Below are positions 24,001-33,000 of a stretch of 64,000 nt of DNA, piece by piece. Where the stretch lies: contig JAUQWV010000006.1 in assembly GCA_030834985.1 (NCBI GenBank), positions 12,168-76,167 on the forward strand, read 5' to 3'. This DNA comes from Candidatus Dojkabacteria bacterium. GTDB lineage: Bacteria; Patescibacteriota; Dojkabacteria; J137. Numbering within the stretch: position 1 is the stretch's first letter; the number at the start of each line of letters is the position of its first letter. Made by a program: the position numbers.

Positions 24001-27000
24001 GTATCTAAAAAAACATTTTGCAAAGGAACAAAAAAGAATAAGATCGGAATTATCGCGATTATAAATTTGGATTTTCTAATCATTAGAGTATGAATAATAT
24101 ATTAATGACTTTACTCAAATAATTAAACTGAACCTTCTGGCAAGATATCTAAAATATTTACACCTAATATTCTTAATATTAATACGCTAAATACCAGTAA
24201 TGCTATTCCTGTTAAAGTAGCAATTAGCTGATCGCGAGCACCTTTTATCTTCTCAGTATTTCCCATTTGATAAAGCAGTCCTACATATATCATTTGGAGT
24301 AGAGCAACACCACCCATTACGCCTAAGGCAATCCTAATTAATCCAGTAATAATGCCTGTAGGAGTAGGGTCAATACAACCTATTGCTGTATAAATACCTC
24401 CTGTTTCAAAACATTGACGGTAGAGTTCCGCATTCTCACCTTCTTCCAGAAGATATCCTTGGGTGATATCACTAGTGCCAAGTAGTTCCTCTTTTCGATA
24501 ATAAGGTGCTGCTGCCTGACAGAATACTACCTGTCTTTTATTACCATTCATAGGTCCTGCATCTTCTATCAACATTGCTTCCCCATCTACATAACATCTC
24601 CTACATGATTTTGTTTCATTCGCAGGATCTCGCAAAGCATCACCTTGCAATATATCAAACTCATTTCCACCACTTGCAATTGTTGAACCTTCAACTAACG
24701 CACAATCAAAGTCTCCTGTGTTGCCACACACTTTAGGAGCTCCAGTTGCTGCAACAAATTCTGCAAATGCAAAATCATAAGTATCTGTTAAATAAGTTCC
24801 TAAGCCAGCTCCTCTTATCATATTTCCGGGATCTCCTTCTACATTACTACTTGCAATTTCAGTAGGGACAGTCTGACCAGTTCTAGGATTTGTAGCCGTT
24901 GACCTTCCCCAAATTGAATTACCATTACCATCAACACATCTACTTCCTGCGGCATTTCTAGGTTCCCAATAATTAGAATTACTACCACTTGCAGGATTTA
25001 AACAACAACCTGACATAGCTCCTGCACCTTGTCCATCGTTTATAGCAGCCCATGGAGATACTTGATCTTTAGCTGCACGGTATGAATACCCAATCGGACA
25101 ACAACCCCAAATAGACCAAGATCTATCTGTTGACTGTGATGGGTGATAATCAAACATACACGCTCTTGCCCACACCGCTACATTCGTCCCACTATTTCCA
25201 GAAAGCCCTAAGGATTCTAAATCATACGATTGATCCCAACCTTTATGTTCAAGCCTTGCAATAATTCCATTTATACCGTTTGTACCATCAGATTTTCTAT
25301 AGCATAAGCCAACAGATCTTTCTTCTGACCACGAATTAACAAATCTAGAAGTAACTCCTTGAAGAGGGAAAGACCAATTAGCACCTAAGGCTCCTGTGGC
25401 ACTAACTCCGTGAAAAGGAATAGTACCTGATTCTAAATCCTCTAAAAAGTTTCCAAATCCAGAACCGGCAGCAGTTTCGCAATCGCTATAATTACTTGCA
25501 CATGCACCGCCATATCCTGCCAACTGAGCTTTAACATTAGATGGTAAATTTGCGCTTGCACCTGCAATTATTACAGCTAAAGATGTGAGTATAAATATTA
25601 ATTTAATTTTGAAATGTTTCATCATATAAATACTATTCTAATCTTTTTAGTGCATCTACAAATATTGTAAAGCTTGCCTGTCTTCCATCTTCTAAAACAG
25701 CTCTCCCTTTAAAAATAAAGATTGGCATTACAAAACCATTCCAGTTATCTGGCTCGTAAAATCCCAAAGTAGTTCTTGTTGCATCTGCAATGAAGCTTCT
25801 TACTGATAAGTTCTCGTAGGTTTCTAAAGGATTCCCGTTTTCCGGCAAAAGGTTAACTAAAAAGCCATTACCAGATTGAGCTTTATTCCAAGCTTCCCGT
25901 AAATCAATAATAGGGTAAACACCTTTTGTAACACCTCTTGTAGCATATTCATAATCCGTAAATTGAAGGCTAAATACATCACGAGGATAGTCCGACAAAT
26001 TGTTGCCTATGATTACACGTAGTGAGCCATTCCTGGGATCGCTTTTATAAACAATACCTTCAACTGCTGCAGGAATAGCATTTAAAACATTTGTATCTGT
26101 TGTAATCCGCCCCAATTCTTCACGAGTTTTTACATCTGCTAATCTAAGCCTTCTGTAAACTTCCAAAAATACAAATCTGGCCTGGATATCACGCTCAGGC
26201 TTAAAGAAAGCGCCAGCATTATTTAAATCAGCAGGTACATATTCTACATAAGGACTCTGAAGCCCAGCATTATTCGAGAAACCTAGACGATTAACTAAAG
26301 CACCAGCAGAATTGATATATGAAGTTAAATTAGTATTCAATGTACCTAGCGTCTTTACGTTTATATTATTAAACCAGTCTGTAGTTAAATCCCATTGTTG
26401 AGTAGTTTTATTAAATTTTAATGTTTTTGTTCCTTCAGATGCTACCCATGTATATTCATCACCATCGTAAGTACACCTATCTGCAACTGCACTGAAGTTT
26501 GGTAATTCTTGTACAGGAATGCATTGGCTTTTAAATCCTAAAACAGCTGCTGTTTTTACAGCATCTTCAATTGTTGTTAGTCTTTCTCGAGGCTGTTCAA
26601 TCTTGTATACGTATGCAGTATCTGGAAAACCAGCAACAAGTGCATTACTTAATCTATCAATAGAATAATTAGGCGTTACTGCCGGATTAGTTTTGATCGC
26701 ATAGATAGTAACTCTTGGAACATTCTGCAATGCTAAGTCAGGATCTTTATAATAACTGAACTGTGGGCTACTACCGGTAGACGGTCTATTAAATAATTGG
26801 GACACTGATTCCCATGCAATTACAAGAATTGCAAAAATTAAAAAAGCCAAAAGGGCTTTTCTTGCATTTGAAGCTGTTTCAAATAGAGTAGCCATATATT
26901 ATCTACATTCTTAAGTCTAATACTTATTATAGATTATCATTTAATATCTTTCATTGCATTCAAAAATAGTTTAAACTTTTGTTATGTCTAACCAAAATTA

Positions 27001-30000: not shown

Positions 30001-33000
30001 ATATTGGGCGCATCTAAAAGAAGAAAAGTTCAATCTACTAAAACAACCACTACTGCTACAACAAATTTACCGCCGCTGCCTGTACCACCCGTACCTATTC
30101 AGCCAGTTGCAGCTCAAGTAAACTTACCGCCTGCACCGCAACCTGTTGTACAACAACCAGTTACGCAACCGCAGCCAGTTACTCCATCAGCAGATTTCTC
30201 GTCGTTTATGCAGAATTATAATTTTGGAGTGCAGCCACAACCGGTTAAACCTAAACTACAGCAAGAAGCTGTGAAACCTAGAATACCTGAAACTCAAATA
30301 CCTTCTGAAGGGCCATCACAACCAGTGCTACTGTCAACACCTCAAAATTTAAGTCAGAATATTCAAATAGCATATAGTGGGGGAGCAACAACTTCTACTG
30401 AACCAGATCAAACTTACGTTGAGTCACCAGCAACAGATCAAGCTGTTGAACCTCAGGTGGCAGAAAATAATACAGAAGAAGAACTTAAGAAAATGTACCC
30501 AGAATTATACGGTGCTTCTACACAAGCACAAGAAGAAAACAGTAATACCGACACTACCACCAACCTATCTGCTACGCCTAATACTGATAATGGAGAATAT
30601 TTTGAACCTGTACCTAAAGATTAACTTTAACTTGCAATAGGAATGCAAACGGGCAGCTTTTTAAGCTGCCCGTTTAACCTAACTGCTCAGACCGAAGTAC
30701 TGAGTGAATCTAGAGAGTTACTCCCCAAAGCCACAAGATGTAAACTGTGGCTAAGAAGAAGACGAGGACGTTTACAAATCGACGCAAACGCCGATCGAAA
30801 GTCCGAGCTAACCATGTCGCGCCCCATGTTCCAGCAGGCGGTAACCCACCTGCAGTTTGAAGGAACAGACCTTTGTGAAGGCCATTTTCTTTACCTACGG
30901 CACTACCGGCACGATCTGCCCAGAAAACGAATACAATGATCATCACTAGCCAGGGTTTGTTGACCATCCCTTGTCCGATAGCCTGCACTGCTAAGTGCAT
31001 GGATACGAACGGATTTTCTGTGAACTCTGGCATTCCACTAAAAACGATACCCCACAACCACAGTATGTAGATTGTAGTGAAGGTATATACGCTTATAGTG
31101 AAGAGTGTTTTCCAGAATCCTCTCCATGTTTTTCTGTACCACTTCATCCATTGCACTGCACCTGCCGTTGCCGGCAATGCAGCCCGTTGCTTATTAATTC
31201 CCTCCGCGACGCTACGTAAAAACGCCTGCTTACGCGATTGGAGATTAACGAGCAGCATGATAACGATGATGATAACTAGAGCGGGATTAACGATAAAGCC
31301 TAGGCCAATTTGCGCCCAGATCGAGTTAAGCAACTCGAATAGGTTGAACATTTTGTTCTTCTCCCCATAGATTCAGTTGTTAAGTTACATATACAGTATA
31401 TACCTAAAAGGGCCAATTGTCTATATACTCAATATATACTTGGGTATGGTATAATTAATATGTAAAATGATATAAAATTACTTATATGGCAGAAGAACCA
31501 AAAAAAGAAGAAAAAAAAGAGCCACAATCAAGAACTGATAAGGTTTTTGAAGGCTTAGAAAAGTGGCTAGACAACTCTGCTGAAAAAGGCCTCGGCCTTG
31601 GTATTGCAGGAGATGCAGATATGAAGAAAAAAATTGACCGACTAGGTTTAGATAGAATAATTTCTGGGCCTACGGCAGTACTTGAAAGAGCGATATTAAC
31701 CCCTATAAAAGCTTATTCAGGACTTTATGCTGCCAGTCAGTACCTTGGTACAAGGATAAGAAATAGTGTAGCGATGAGACGAAGACTAGCTGCGGAAGAA
31801 TATTTAAAAGGGACAGGACCTTGGAGTGAAAAAGGTCTTATCTATGGGCATGCCGATCGAGTTGTAAAGGAAGCGCCAGAGTATCAGAAGGCATATAATA
31901 ATCTTGATAGTGTTGCTACTAAGAGAAATAATTTTTTTGATTCTAAAGAAAAATCAATACGTGTAGCACTAGATGAAGCTGCTGCCTCCGGTAATGCAGC
32001 TGCTGTAATAGCTGAAACCGCAAATCTACGTAATATCAGAAGGACACGCGCAAATATTGCTCATAGTGTGTATGTGGTCACAACTACACCACCACCTCAC
32101 TCTGACGAAGACAAAGAGAATTATGCACTACATATGGCAAACACCAATTTAAATACACAAAGGGCGGCTTACTTAGGAACTTCTAGCGCAATACCCAATA
32201 GAGTAATTAGGGGATTTAAGCAGCGTCGAATAGAAAGAGCTATCAAGCATGTTAATTGGAAAAAGGAACTTGCAACAAAAACTACAAAATCGACATTCGG
32301 AGTTTTTAGAATGAGCGATTATTTTGACAGACGTGATGACATACATTCTGAAATAGCACTGGAAAGAAAAGCACTCAAGACGGCTAGTGCCCTAAAAGAT
32401 CAGTATGCTATTCAGGCAAGAATTGATAAGCTAGAAAGAGAACTTAAAGATATGAGTGGAACGATGAGTATGACTGATCATATTATAACCTTCATGCACG
32501 GCAAGAAAGCAGGGTAGTAAACTTTACATATCTTTTCTGCTATATTAATAAAGTGTTATAACATTTTATTAATATGGTTATCCCAACTATTGATTCATTA
32601 TCTTTAGCCGATGCTGCATTCTCAAATAATAGCTGGTTTGTAACTGACCTATTACAATTTCTAGCTTCTAGAAATATAAATACCTTAAAAAAAATCAATT
32701 TTGATTATATCGGCATACTTAACTTAGATTTATCTGAGATAACTATTAGCAATAGTGTAGAAAAGATAAAAGCATCATTTATAGACTTTGAGAGATTATT
32801 GAACGTTCTTCAACAGATTTCAGGATTTTACAAAAGTAAATCCTATTCAAACCTTGATATTCAAATTGCCAACTTGACTATTTATAACGCTATAAAAGCT
32901 AATAAGCTAGATGAACTTAGTAGTGAACCAGGATTAGTACAAATAATACAAGAAGCAAAAAATTCAATTCCACAAGAGTATTTTCAAAACTCTTTTTATA

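What the first reader, a model, noticed from the sequence alone, without database searches (positions are those of the whole stretch)
26984..30624. Solute-binding protein with no nearby transporter genes, translationally coupled to an Ig/cadherin-like membrane protein with a Pro-rich cytoplasmic tail
The SBP_bac_1-like protein has a TM anchor and a Thr-rich linker, and no ABC permease or ATPase gene is nearby. Its stop overlaps the start (taATGa) of a 715-aa protein carrying He_PIG/cadherin-like repeats and an Ig-like region. That protein has a single TM and a C-terminal tail of PxxP/PQPV repeats, which looks like a protein-interaction scaffold. The pairing suggests a receptor- or adhesin-like module rather than nutrient uptake.
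Basis: partly seen in the sequence, partly recalled or inferred. Interest (0 to 1): 0.55.

Follow-up and report, generated by a model that had tools for sequence, protein, structure and literature searches.

The report
Orphan sugar-binding protein with Ig-like partner
In an ultra-small, probably host-dependent bacterium (Candidatus Dojkabacteria), a membrane-tethered sugar-binding protein with no transporter genes beside it is always encoded together with a four-domain Ig/cadherin-like membrane protein and a third unknown membrane protein, which points to a cell-surface recognition complex more than a nutrient pump, although no function has been shown.

Summary
ORFs 26984-28477 (497 aa) and 28477-30624 (715 aa) overlap in TAATG. 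The first is a genuine SBP_bac_1/SBP_bac_8 protein with a 52-aa cytoplasmic N-tail, one TM helix and a Thr-rich stalk. The second has a signal peptide, four beta-sandwich domains (AlphaFold pLDDT 83; Foldseek finds cadherin and Ig arrays), one TM helix and a 202-aa Pro/Gln/Thr-rich tail. No ABC permease or ATPase lies in the 64-kb window.

Three things are new:
- The pair, plus the divergently transcribed 420-aa single-pass protein (25633-26895), forms a trio in all 27 distinct Dojkabacteria loci examined, down to 26% identity.
- None of 35 distinct related loci has an importer gene beside the SBP.
- Both predicted cytoplasmic tails end in the same short motif (YYYEQP at the SBP N-end, EYFEPVPKD at the partner C-end). 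It is almost absent from about 900 other ORFs.

The trio often sits beside type IV secretion (T4SS)-like genes.

Best reading (0.45): a surface glycan-recognition or adhesion complex. Rivals are uptake through a distant ABC permease (0.30) and a cell-envelope biogenesis role (0.15). A whole-genome search for permeases could not be run. I rate this a new variant of a known kind, of moderate interest.

The parts
25633..26895 (-). 'up420': 420-aa single-pass membrane protein (conserved N-terminus MA[ST]LY.....ARK, TM aa 14-32, about 385-aa ectodomain), transcribed divergently from the SBP. Third invariant member of the trio; no known family.
   Evidence: ORF; TM. It is adjacent to the SBP in every locus with upstream flank. 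No Pfam hit in 28 + 31 members and no PDB sequence match. The family has 315 representative clusters, all about 370-450 aa. The AF2 model is poor (pLDDT 54.8).
26896..26983 (.). 88-bp AT-rich divergent intergenic region between up420 and the SBP gene; presumed to hold promoters for both directions.
   Evidence: Sequence. Promoter-like hexamers occur on both strands here, but no more often than in shuffled sequence. The assignment is inferred from gene layout only.
26984..28477 (+). Membrane-anchored solute-binding protein (497 aa), MalE/CUT1-type carbohydrate SBP domain at aa ~93-497.
   Evidence: PF13416 54.8 bits and PF01547 51.2 bits, both above cut-off. The best solved-structure match for the family profile is 4r9f 'MBP1' (E 1.6e-23), followed by maltose, acarbose and trehalose binding proteins. 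There are 111 homologues, named Dojkabacteria where named.
26984..27139 (+). Predicted cytoplasmic N-terminal tail of the SBP (aa 1-52), rich in Pro/Thr/Tyr/Gln. It contains the conserved motif YYYEQP (aa 22-27, nt 27047-27064).
   Evidence: KNRR lies before the TM helix. The motif column is conserved in alignment A3. The motif is in the N-terminal region of 16/38 SBP ORFs against 3/897 other ORFs.
27140..27259 (+). TM anchor (aa 53-75) and Thr-rich stalk (aa 76-92, SRGGTGTTNTTTPTTQN).
   Evidence: Hydropathy 3.46 over aa 53-71; alignment A3.
28475..28479 (+). TAATG stop/start overlap between the two genes.
   Evidence: Overlaps of 1 or 4 nt recur in 9 of 26 loci (plus one of 14 nt), and gaps of 40 nt or less in 12 more. 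The start was taken as the first start codon of each ORF.
28477..30624 (+). 'Ig715': 715-aa type I membrane protein. Signal peptide (aa 1-~25), four beta-sandwich domains, one TM helix and a disordered cytoplasmic tail.
   Evidence: It has 22 homologues, all from the same lineage where named.
28564..29196 (+). Ectodomains D1 (aa 30-140, four invariant Cys: C73, C116, C120, C133) and D2 (aa 147-240, cadherin/He_PIG-like, with invariant D172 and D174 in 'ATDPDNDTL').
   Evidence: AF2 strand map with pLDDT about 88-94. Invariant columns. Cadherin PF00028 covers aa 166-238 at 25.6 bits, below cut-off.
29284..29886 (+). Ectodomains D3 (aa 270-365) and D4 (aa 375-470, Big_13-like, invariant C426 and C435). 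A disordered Pro/Thr linker (aa ~241-269) precedes them.
   Evidence: AF2. Big_13 covers aa 406-463 at 24.9 bits, below cut-off.
29935..30012 (+). TM helix of Ig715 (aa ~487-512), followed by KRRK.
   Evidence: Hydropathy scan; AF2 helix at aa 487-504.
30013..30621 (+). Predicted cytoplasmic tail (about 202 aa, rich in Pro/Thr/Gln). It holds conserved islands 'EEELKKMYPELYG' and the C-terminal motif GEYFEPVPKD (aa 706-715, nt 30592-30621).
   Evidence: Composition. Alignment A4 has the consensus '...DYxEPxPKD' at the C-terminus. The motif is in the last residues of 19/32 Ig715 ORFs against 1/897 other ORFs.
30646..30676 (.). 14-bp-stem hairpin (AAACGGGCAGCTT-TTT-AAGCTGCCCGTTT) between the convergent Ig715 gene and the 213-aa gene; probably a bidirectional terminator that closes the two-gene operon.
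22578..25625 (-). Context: two paralogous ~500-aa proteins (22578-24083 and 24123-25625). Each has a signal/TM segment, a Cys-rich ectodomain and a C-terminal two-helix segment resembling VirB2-type T4SS pilins. They lie downstream of up420 on the same strand.
   Evidence: PF18895 is weak here (E 0.015 and 0.068). 5/15 family members hit PF18895, best E 1.8e-6. A member lies beside up420 in 14 loci.
34369..36984 (-). Context: 871-aa polytopic membrane protein, tentatively VirB6-like. It recurs 1-3 genes from the pair in 16 loci, and in four loci lies 1-2 genes from a T4SS coupling-protein/VirB4-like ATPase.
   Evidence: Weak NCBIfam hits to Mollicutes ICE conjugal-transfer TM proteins (E 7e-4 and 7e-3). 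Synteny. The ATPase identity (TrwB_AAD_bind, TraG-D_C, DUF87) comes. No PDB match.

Best explanation
Gene layout. The two genes form a bicistronic operon. It runs from a divergent promoter region to a terminator hairpin at 30646-30676. Together with the divergently transcribed 420-aa membrane protein, it makes a three-protein cell-surface module specific to Candidatus Dojkabacteria (Patescibacteria/CPR).

Anatomy.
- The SBP is a MalE/CUT1-type carbohydrate-binding domain. An N-terminal TM helix and a Thr-rich stalk hold it on the outer face of the membrane.
- Its partner is a type I membrane protein whose four Ig/cadherin-like domains project from the same membrane.

Proposed function. The most likely role is recognition, for adhesion or sensing, of an oligosaccharide or glycan on a host cell or in the surroundings. 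The SBP would be the ligand-binding head and the Ig-like protein the stalk or scaffold. This would operate beside a T4SS-like surface apparatus, not as the receptor of an adjacent ABC importer. Both proteins reach into the cytoplasm with disordered tails that end in the same Tyr-containing motif (YYEQP / [DE]Y[YFV]EP). That suggests one cytoplasmic partner holds or reads both.

Shown: gene structure, domain identity, fold of the ectodomain, conservation of the trio, absence of neighbouring importer genes, and the shared motif.

Inferred: the membrane topology (from hydropathy and charge only), physical complex formation, a carbohydrate ligand, the adhesion/sensing role, the link to the T4SS, and any tail-binding partner.
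For: 1. Conserved trio. up420, SBP and Ig715 occur together in all 27 distinct Dojkabacteria loci, and where flanks exist Ig715 follows the SBP and up420 precedes it. This holds down to 26% Ig715 identity (L041) and across rearrangements (L020 co-directional with the pilin gene inserted; L028).
2. Close coupling. The stop and start overlap by 1-4 nt in 9 of 26 loci, and a hairpin follows the second gene.
3. No importer genes. None lie in the 64-kb window or within about 10 kb in 27 Dojkabacteria and 8 more distant CPR loci. The only ABC ATPases found (L007, L031) lie 6-7 kb away, and the one with Pfam calls (L007) sits next to an ABC-2 membrane gene, i.e. exporter-type.
4. T4SS-like neighbours. 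VirB2-like pilin fusions lie beside up420 in 14 loci. The VirB6-like polytopic protein lies near the pair in 16. A T4CP/VirB4-like ATPase is present in 4. In a separate CPR lineage, lipoprotein SBP homologues sit directly upstream of 6-7 T4SS_pilin genes.
5. Shared terminal motif. It is found in 16/38 SBP N-tails and 19/32 Ig715 C-ends, against 4/897 other ORFs. Where the SBP is a lipoprotein or has only a short tail, the partner ends in a different motif (GYGYG / DWL); Fisher p = 0.047, not corrected for phylogeny.
6. Ectodomain. It is an array of four beta-sandwich domains, as in adhesion molecules, with invariant Cys pairs.
7. Pocket. The family keeps invariant aromatic and acidic residues. 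D211 aligns with MalE E111, and W166, F269 and Y340 fall at MalE sugar-contact positions (the MalE sequence and residue roles are from my own knowledge).
8. Precedent. Orphan SBP-like proteins with non-transport roles are known (LpqZ/FecB, PMC12802301).
Against: - No experiment or expression data were available.
- The whole genome could not be searched, so a distant CUT1 permease/ATPase that uses this SBP is not excluded. SBP genes unlinked to their permeases are well known.
- A conserved carbohydrate-type pocket is exactly what a transport SBP would also show.
- The T4SS neighbourhood may partly reflect general synteny in small genomes. DNA ligase, AlaRS and a P-type ATPase are also recurrent neighbours, and about 7 loci have no T4SS-like gene within 10 kb.
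- The VirB6-like call is weak.
- In Microgenomates-type relatives the SBP is paired with VanW/PG_binding_4 proteins and sits near cell-wall genes instead.
- The tail co-variation is not corrected for phylogeny.
- Complex formation between the three proteins is untested.
- A 2025 survey of Patescibacteria T4SS gene content does not mention an SBP or an Ig-like component.
Confidence: 0.45

Rival explanations
1. Classical nutrient uptake with an unlinked transporter. The SBP captures an oligosaccharide and delivers it to a CUT1-type ABC permease/ATPase encoded elsewhere in the genome. The plasmid-encoded SBP PrgZ works this way through the chromosomal Opp permease (my knowledge). The Ig-like partner would be an accessory surface protein that captures or positions polymeric substrate.
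For: - The SBP passes Pfam thresholds, and its nearest solved relatives are transport SBPs for manno-oligosaccharides, maltose, acarbose and trehalose.
- Pocket-type residues are invariant across the family.
- A TM anchor plus a Thr-rich stalk is how monoderm and archaeal transport SBPs are often tethered (my knowledge).
- These organisms are described as fermenters carrying glycoside hydrolases (PMC10031880), so they need sugar import.
Against: - No importer permease or MalK-type ATPase lies within about 10 kb in 35 distinct loci or in the 64-kb window (and the Pfam scans).
- The invariant operon partners are non-transporter proteins.
- The 52-aa cytoplasmic tail with a conserved motif shared with the partner has no role in the canonical mechanism.
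Confidence: 0.3
2. Cell-envelope biogenesis or maintenance. The orphan SBP binds a cell-wall glycan or peptidoglycan precursor or fragment. With up420 and Ig715 it would assist envelope enzymes, as reported for the orphan SBP-like lipoproteins LpqZ/FecB of mycobacteria and the SBP-like regulatory module of MltF.
For: - In five more distant CPR loci the homologous SBP is divergently paired with a VanW + PG_binding_4 protein, in the position up420 occupies here.
- Other neighbours there are sortase and a class A PBP and MurT/GatD.
- There is precedent for orphan SBPs acting in envelope synthesis (PMC12802301).
- The window also encodes peptidoglycan genes, though not adjacent: MurA-like, MurB, a Mur ligase, PBP1 and a MraY-like GT4.
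Against: - up420 shows no detectable homology to VanW (hhalign probability 0.1-0.2%).
- The Dojkabacteria trio is not next to cell-wall enzymes.
- The distant homologues are only 28-31% identical and may differ in function.
- Four Ig-like domains and long cytoplasmic tails are not features of known envelope-assembly SBPs.
Confidence: 0.15
3. SBP-dependent signalling (ChvE/VirA-like). The sugar-loaded SBP would dock on the ectodomain of the single-pass partner, which relays the signal through its tail to control the T4SS-like genes or other responses.
For: - Strict pairing of an SBP with a single-pass membrane protein carrying a long cytoplasmic tail.
- T4SS-like neighbours.
- SBPs encoded next to the sensors they activate are a known arrangement (abstract of PMC11113362, listed).
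Against: - The tail has no kinase, HAMP, GGDEF or DNA-binding domain; it is low-complexity with only short conserved motifs.
- No response regulator or kinase is in the neighbourhood.
- The SBP carries its own tail with the same motif, which a simple ligand-relay model does not need.
Confidence: 0.07

Closest known systems
Carbohydrate (CUT1, MalE-like; Pfam SBP_bac_1/SBP_bac_8) solute-binding proteins of ABC importers, e.g. E. coli MalE and the manno-oligosaccharide binder in PDB 4r9f
   Same: - Same domain family above Pfam thresholds.
- Profile match to 4r9f at E 1.6e-23, and to maltose, acarbose and trehalose binders.
- Acidic and aromatic residues fall at MalE sugar-contact positions.
- Membrane tethering through an N-terminal anchor and a Thr-rich stalk, as in monoderm and archaeal SBPs.
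   Different: - No permease or ATPase genes nearby in any of 35 loci.
- A 52-aa cytoplasmic N-tail with a conserved motif.
- Invariant operon partnership with a non-transporter Ig-like membrane protein and with up420.
Orphan SBP-like lipoproteins with non-transport roles (mycobacterial LpqZ and FecB; PMC12802301)
   Same: SBP fold, no associated ABC operon, and a proposed repurposing through interaction with other membrane proteins.
   Different: Different SBP clusters (ProX-like and FecB-like there, MalE-like here). Those partners are arabinosyltransferases, and no enzyme sits beside the SBP here. Those proteins are lipoproteins without cytoplasmic tails.
SBPs attached to conjugation or T4SS biology: PrgZ of plasmid pCF10, and ChvE with the VirA sensor in Agrobacterium (my knowledge)
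   Same: An SBP encoded or acting together with a T4SS. PrgZ has no permease of its own. ChvE senses host-derived sugars.
   Different: PrgZ is an OppA-type peptide binder and ChvE a monosaccharide binder with its own ABC transporter. No histidine kinase or pheromone system is found here. The link to the T4SS-like genes rests on gene neighbourhood only.
Bacterial Ig-like/cadherin-like surface proteins (Pfam Cadherin, He_PIG, Big_13) and tandem Ig or cadherin adhesion receptors
   Same: A string of four beta-sandwich domains on a membrane anchor. Foldseek matches cadherin EC1-5 and contactin/sidekick Ig arrays at E about 1e-13. D2 has a DxDxD-type motif. The topology is type I single-pass with a cytoplasmic tail, as in eukaryotic cadherins.
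   Different: Pfam scores are below cut-off in this protein, and TM-scores are low (0.15-0.24) because only the domain type matches. There is no LPXTG, SLH or autotransporter anchor. The cytoplasmic tail is unlike any described family, and the obligatory pairing with an SBP is not a feature of known adhesins.
Patescibacteria T4SS related to the monoderm MPF-FATA class (PMC12102498)
   Same: VirB2-like pilins, a VirB6-like protein and a T4CP/VirB4-like ATPase are scattered near the locus, with no relaxase seen. This fits the published picture.
   Different: The paper lists no SBP, Ig-like or up420-like component. The trio also occurs without T4SS-like neighbours in about 7 loci.
Sulfolobus 'bindosome' (sugar-binding proteins assembled at the surface by pilin-like Bas proteins; my knowledge)
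   Same: Membrane-anchored sugar SBPs with Ser/Thr-rich stalks, genetically or functionally tied to small pilin-like proteins. Compare loci L009 and L038, where an SBP is followed by 6-7 pilin genes.
   Different: The bindosome uses type IV pilin-like (class III) signal peptides and T4P-type assembly genes, and its SBPs still serve ABC transporters. Here the pilins are VirB2-type, and the SBP has a long N-tail, not a class III signal.

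Membership tests
Solute-binding protein family 1 (Pfam PF01547 SBP_bac_1 / PF13416 SBP_bac_8) | Domain score at or above Pfam's gathering cut-off | tested here: met
   PF13416 54.8 bits (cut-off 27) and PF01547 51.2 bits (cut-off 26).
Solute-binding protein family 1 (Pfam PF01547 SBP_bac_1 / PF13416 SBP_bac_8) | Sequence relationship to solved two-lobe periplasmic binding protein structures that bind carbohydrates | tested here: met
   The family profile matches 407 PDB sequences. 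Best is 4r9f at E 1.6e-23, followed by MalE-like proteins. No structure was predicted for this protein itself.
SBP component of an ABC importer (functional class) | Cognate permease (PF00528) and ATPase (PF00005, MalK-type) genes in the same operon or neighbourhood | tested here: not met
   None in the 64-kb window. None within about 10 kb in 27 Dojkabacteria and 8 other CPR loci. The only ABC ATPases found (2 loci) lie 6-7 kb away; the one with Pfam calls sits next to an ABC-2 membrane gene.
SBP component of an ABC importer (functional class) | A cognate permease/ATPase anywhere in the genome | not testable with these tools
SBP component of an ABC importer (functional class) | Ligand binding and delivery to a permease | not testable with these tools
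   Only indirect evidence: invariant D211, W166, W209, F269 and Y340 at or near MalE sugar-contact positions.
Cadherin domain (PF00028) | Score at or above the gathering cut-off | tested here: not met
   25.6 bits against a cut-off of 28.8, over aa 166-238.
Cadherin domain (PF00028) | Inter-domain Ca2+-binding motifs (DxD, DxNDN, etc.) | tested here: inconclusive
   D2 has invariant D172 and D174 in 'ATDPDNDTL'. The full motif set between domains was not evaluated.
He_PIG (PF05345) | Profile match | tested here: inconclusive
   No hit at E <= 0.1 in the window protein. Precomputed hits exist for homologues (L005 721 aa; P0133).
Bacterial Ig-like domain Big_13 (PF19077) | Score at or above the gathering cut-off | tested here: not met
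   24.9 bits against a cut-off of 27, over aa 406-463. Several homologues carry a precomputed PF19077 hit.
Ig-like / cadherin-like beta-sandwich fold (structural class) | Tandem beta-sandwich domains in a confident model with matches to solved Ig or cadherin arrays | tested here: met
   AF2 pLDDT 83.3 with four all-beta domains. Foldseek against the PDB gives 419 matches at E <= 0.001, topped by cadherin EC and contactin/sidekick Ig arrays.
S-layer protein | SLH or another known S-layer family domain; no TM anchor with a cytoplasmic tail | tested here: not met
   No such Pfam or NCBIfam hit. The protein has a TM helix and a 202-aa tail. The only S-layer match (B. anthracis Sap, rank 49) is a generic Ig-array hit.
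Adventurous gliding protein GltJ (NCBIfam NF033761) | Equivalog score at or above 450 bits | tested here: not met
   28.3 bits, confined to the Pro-rich tail (aa 474-694), so the hit is compositional.
Accessory component of the Patescibacteria T4SS | Consistent location beside virB4 or other T4SS genes | tested here: inconclusive
   Pilin-like genes are adjacent in 14 loci, the VirB6-like gene near in 16, and a T4CP/VirB4-like ATPase in 4. About 7 loci have none within 10 kb. Not listed in the published survey.
ChvE/VirA-type SBP-sensor pair | Partner carries a signalling output domain (histidine kinase or similar) | tested here: not met
   No kinase or other output domain in Ig715 or its neighbours.
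VanW family (for the upstream 420-aa partner) | Profile similarity to VanW (PF04294) | tested here: not met
   No Pfam hit in 59 members. hhalign against VanW proteins of related loci gives probability 0.1-0.2%.

The most novel reading that the evidence does not exclude
The trio is a previously undescribed bacterial transmembrane receptor complex. A MalE-like glycan-binding head and a cadherin-like type I membrane protein each carry a disordered cytoplasmic tail ending in the same short linear motif (YYEQP / [DE]Y[YFV]EP). One cytoplasmic factor docks on both, coupling recognition of a host-cell surface glycan to the T4SS-like apparatus that these host-dependent bacteria are thought to use on their hosts. 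This would be an SBP recruited into host recognition, not transport.
Probability: 0.2. Interest if true: 0.75.

Novelty: new variant of a known kind. Interest (0 to 1): 0.5.

Why it matters
Patescibacteria (CPR) make up a large share of bacterial diversity and mostly live attached to other cells. The molecules that recognise the host are largely unknown.

This trio is lineage-wide and strictly conserved. It contains a ligand-binding domain that can be expressed and screened, which gives a concrete, testable candidate for host or glycan recognition in Dojkabacteria.

It would also add a case of an ABC-type binding protein reused outside transport. The identical terminal motif on two different membrane proteins is a handle for finding their cytoplasmic partner.

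If a distant ABC permease turns out to use this SBP, the finding shrinks to an unusual accessory arrangement around an ordinary sugar importer.

Tried and rejected
1. Is the upstream 420-aa protein a diverged VanW, given that VanW holds the same position in other CPR? hhalign with 3- and 28-sequence profiles gave probability 0.1-0.2%. There were no Pfam hits in 59 members and no PDB sequence match. Rejected for lack of evidence.

2. AlphaFold2 of the 420-aa protein with the only admissible alignment (12 close homologues) gave pLDDT 54.8. I made no fold search or fold claim from it.

3. Is the 704-aa gene after the SBP in locus L011 a homologue of the 715-aa protein? BLASTP found no similarity. 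The Ig-like partner is specific to Dojkabacteria.

4. The GltJ (gliding motility) NCBIfam hit scored 28 bits against a 450-bit cut-off and lies only in the Pro-rich tail. Rejected as compositional.

5. VirB6 identity of the 871-aa protein. There were no Pfam or PDB matches. Only 1-2 of 12 members give weak hits to Mollicutes ICE transfer proteins. Kept as tentative only.

6. Whole-genome search for a partner ABC transporter. This was not possible with the remaining caps. Papers on Dojkabacteria/CPR that I checked do not report transporter content.

7. Literature on an SBP or Ig-like component of Patescibacteria T4SS or on orphan SBPs in CPR. Nothing found.

8. S-layer or enzyme identity for the 715-aa protein. 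No support.

Full report
**What is there**

The window is low-GC (about 0.30-0.42). Named homologues identify the organism as Candidatus Dojkabacteria (WS6), a lineage of Patescibacteria/CPR.

The stop of the first shares a base with the ATG of the second (TAATG, 28475-28479). The pair is bounded upstream by an 88-bp divergent intergenic region. Downstream there is a 14-bp-stem hairpin at 30646-30676, just before a convergent gene. It therefore looks like a two-gene operon.

**The SBP**

It passes Pfam's cut-offs for SBP_bac_8 (54.8 bits) and SBP_bac_1 (51.2 bits). A profile of 24 family members matches solved carbohydrate-binding proteins. The best is 4r9f 'MBP1' (E 1.6e-23), followed by maltose, acarbose and trehalose binders.

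A hydropathy scan gives one TM helix (aa 53-71). KNRR precedes it and a Thr-rich stretch (SRGGTGTTNTTTPTTQN) follows it. By the positive-inside rule the first 52 residues are cytoplasmic and the binding domain is outside.

The family keeps 34 invariant positions, many of them aromatic. I aligned it to E. coli MalE through the family profile; the MalE sequence and residue roles are from my own knowledge. In that alignment:
- invariant D211 falls on MalE E111;
- W166 falls on R66;
- F269 falls on Y155;
- Y340 falls on W230.

This is consistent with a working carbohydrate pocket of a specificity other than maltose.

**The 715-aa protein**

It has a signal-like N-terminus. Its TM helix (aa 491-509) is followed by KRRK and a 202-aa tail with 31 Pro, 24 Thr and 23 Gln.

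Pfam's Cadherin (25.6 bits) and Big_13 (24.9 bits) hits are below cut-off, and He_PIG is not hit in this protein. AlphaFold2 of aa 1-507 with 22 homologues gave pLDDT 83.3. The model shows four beta-sandwich domains (about aa 30-140, 147-240, 270-365 and 375-470), a disordered linker and the TM helix. Foldseek against the PDB returned cadherin EC arrays and contactin/sidekick Ig arrays at E about 1e-13. TM-scores were low, as expected for flexible multi-domain chains.

Six Cys and a DxD motif in domain 2 are invariant. Nothing suggests an S-layer or an enzyme. The GltJ hit is compositional.

**No transporter nearby**

A six-frame motif scan of the whole window found no ABC signature; the only Walker A hit is in UvrB. 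Pfam scans of essentially all real ORFs found no ABC_tran or BPD_transp_1.

**Conservation**

The identical protein lies in the same context on several assemblies. A scan of one genome per species returned 24 further loci. I called ORFs in all loci and matched them to the window's proteins with phmmer.
- The 715-aa homologue follows the SBP in all 23 of those loci with downstream sequence. It also does so in L005, L007 and the most distant case, L041 (26% identity).
- The 420-aa protein encoded at 25633-26895 (-) precedes the SBP in all 21 of those loci with upstream sequence, and in L005, L007 and L041 as well.
- The trio survives rearrangements. L020 has all genes on one strand with the pilin gene inserted. 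L028 has its neighbours moved to the other side.
- Stop/start overlaps of 1-4 nt recur in 9 of 26 loci.

The 420-aa family has 315 representative clusters of uniform length. It has no Pfam domain, no PDB relative and no similarity to VanW. Its AlphaFold model was too poor to use.

**Transporter genes in relatives**

Across all fetched loci only two ABC ATPases turned up, in L007 and L031, 6-7 kb away. The L007 gene sits next to an ABC-2 membrane gene, which marks it as exporter-type. Eight loci from more distant CPR (SBP 27-31% identical) also lack importer genes. They show two other recurring contexts:
- A lipoprotein SBP directly upstream of 6-7 T4SS_pilin genes (L009, L038).
- A long-tailed SBP divergently paired with a VanW + PG_binding_4 protein (L010, L011, L013, L039, L040). 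L011 also has a sortase and a PBP nearby. L012, where the SBP is fused to PKD domains, has MurT/GatD next door.

**T4SS-like neighbourhood**

In the window, two ~500-aa paralogues (22578-25625, -) lie downstream of the 420-aa gene. Each ends in a two-helix segment resembling VirB2-type pilins. The match is weak here, but 5 of 15 family members hit PF18895, best E 1.8e-6. Such a gene is adjacent in 14 loci.

An 871-aa polytopic protein (34369-36984, -) recurs near the pair in 16 loci. In four loci it lies 1-2 genes from an ATPase with TrwB_AAD_bind, TraG-D_C and DUF87 domains. Its own VirB6-like identity is weak.

About seven loci have no such gene within 10 kb. Housekeeping genes (DNA ligase, AlaRS, a P-type ATPase) are also recurrent neighbours, so part of the linkage may be plain synteny. 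A 2025 survey of Patescibacteria T4SS does not mention SBP or Ig-like components.

**A shared terminal motif**

Both predicted cytoplasmic tails are mostly unconserved low-complexity sequence, yet each has a conserved end.
- The SBP carries P-[YD]-Y-Y-E-Q-P at or near the N-terminus (window aa 21-27).
- The 715-aa protein ends in [DE]-Y-[YFV]-E-P-x-P-K-D (window GEYFEPVPKD).

The pattern [YFW][YFVIWL]E[PQ] lies in the terminal region of 16/38 SBP ORFs and 19/32 partner ORFs. It does so in only 4/897 other ORFs, most of them probably spurious.

Where the SBP is a lipoprotein or has only a short tail (L007, L025, L026, L031, L033, L036, L041), the partner ends differently (GSYGYG.K.D or DWL). 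A 2x2 test gives p = 0.047, but it is not corrected for phylogeny. This is suggestive, not proven, evidence that the two tails serve one cytoplasmic partner.

**Interpretation**

These points are shown:
- a strictly conserved, lineage-specific trio of membrane proteins;
- the domain identities and the ectodomain fold;
- the lack of neighbouring importer genes;
- the frequent T4SS-like neighbours;
- the shared motif.

The membrane topology rests only on hydropathy and flanking charges.

I infer, with confidence 0.45, that the three proteins form a surface complex that recognises a glycan for adhesion or sensing, and do not feed an adjacent importer.

The main rival (0.30) is ordinary uptake through a permease encoded elsewhere. 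I could not test it, because whole genomes were out of reach. A second rival (0.15) is an envelope-biogenesis role. The VanW and cell-wall contexts of distant homologues suggest it, and the mycobacterial orphan SBPs LpqZ/FecB give a precedent (PMC12802301). A ChvE/VirA-like signalling pair (0.07) lacks any output domain.

**Novelty and score**

Orphan SBPs and Ig-like surface proteins are both known. The obligatory pairing, the cytoplasmic tail on an SBP, the third unknown partner and the shared terminal motif are not described in the literature I could search. I rate it a new variant of a known kind, interest 0.5.

Noticed in passing
window 19153-19938 (-): A YggT-like membrane protein (261 aa) ends in 'KEVYIDVPPPKA'. 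Its homologues in L014-L016 end in 'PVY[IV]D[IL]SNPPKA' or 'EVYIDLPPVKP'. This resembles the EYFEPVPKD end of the 715-aa protein, so a Tyr-containing C-terminal motif may be shared by more membrane proteins of this clade.
   Followed up: partly
window 22578-24083 and 24123-25625 (-): Two tandem paralogues of ~500 aa fuse a large Cys-rich ectodomain to a nearly identical C-terminal VirB2/T4SS_pilin-like two-helix segment. These are unusually large 'pilins'.
   Followed up: partly
L010, L011, L013, L039, L040 (more distant CPR): SBP homologues are divergently paired with VanW + PG_binding_4 proteins. They carry 60-110-aa low-complexity N-tails ending in 'PP[MIF][FMIV][EY]E[DEN]' just before the TM helix. 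This is a second conserved orphan-SBP arrangement.
   Followed up: partly
L009 and L038 (Moranbacteria-type CPR): A lipoprotein SBP homologue (454 aa) is followed by two unknown genes and six or seven consecutive T4SS_pilin (PF18895) genes.
   Followed up: partly
window 40303-40507 (+), then 40561-41049 and 41054-43069: A T-box leader (109.9 bits) precedes a GNAT acetyltransferase gene and a short (671-aa) alanyl-tRNA synthetase.
   Followed up: no
window 44449-45684 (-): The UvrB-like protein is only 411 aa (ResIII + UvrB_inter domains, no C-terminal helicase or UVR part). The same short form (413 aa) is in L005. Two ORFs with no Pfam hit (122 and 350 aa) lie just upstream of it on the same strand.
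   Followed up: no
window 11356-15036 (+): The class II ribonucleotide reductase is very long (1226 aa). Its barrel domain matches in two stretches, and there is a weak TACO1_YebC_N-like match at aa 305-368. This may be an insertion or an intein. NrdR lies upstream.
   Followed up: no
window 43072-43374 (+): The N-terminal domain of prepilin peptidase (A24_N_bact) is encoded as a separate 100-aa ORF. L005 has the same 100-aa gene and a separate 218-aa Peptidase_A24 gene.
   Followed up: no
window 20756-22564 (-): An archaeal/eukaryotic-type ATP-dependent DNA ligase (602 aa, three Pfam domains) is a constant neighbour of the trio in many Dojkabacteria loci.
   Followed up: no
window 30710-31351 (-), 31486-32517 (+), 32574-34367 (+): Three genes with no Pfam family lie between the pair and the VirB6-like gene: a 4-TM, Trp/Arg-rich 213-aa protein with an internal repeat (...YILWLWG... 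twice), and 343-aa and 597-aa soluble proteins. A small minus-strand gene is found just after Ig715 in 17 loci, though its homology to the 213-aa protein was not detected.
   Followed up: partly
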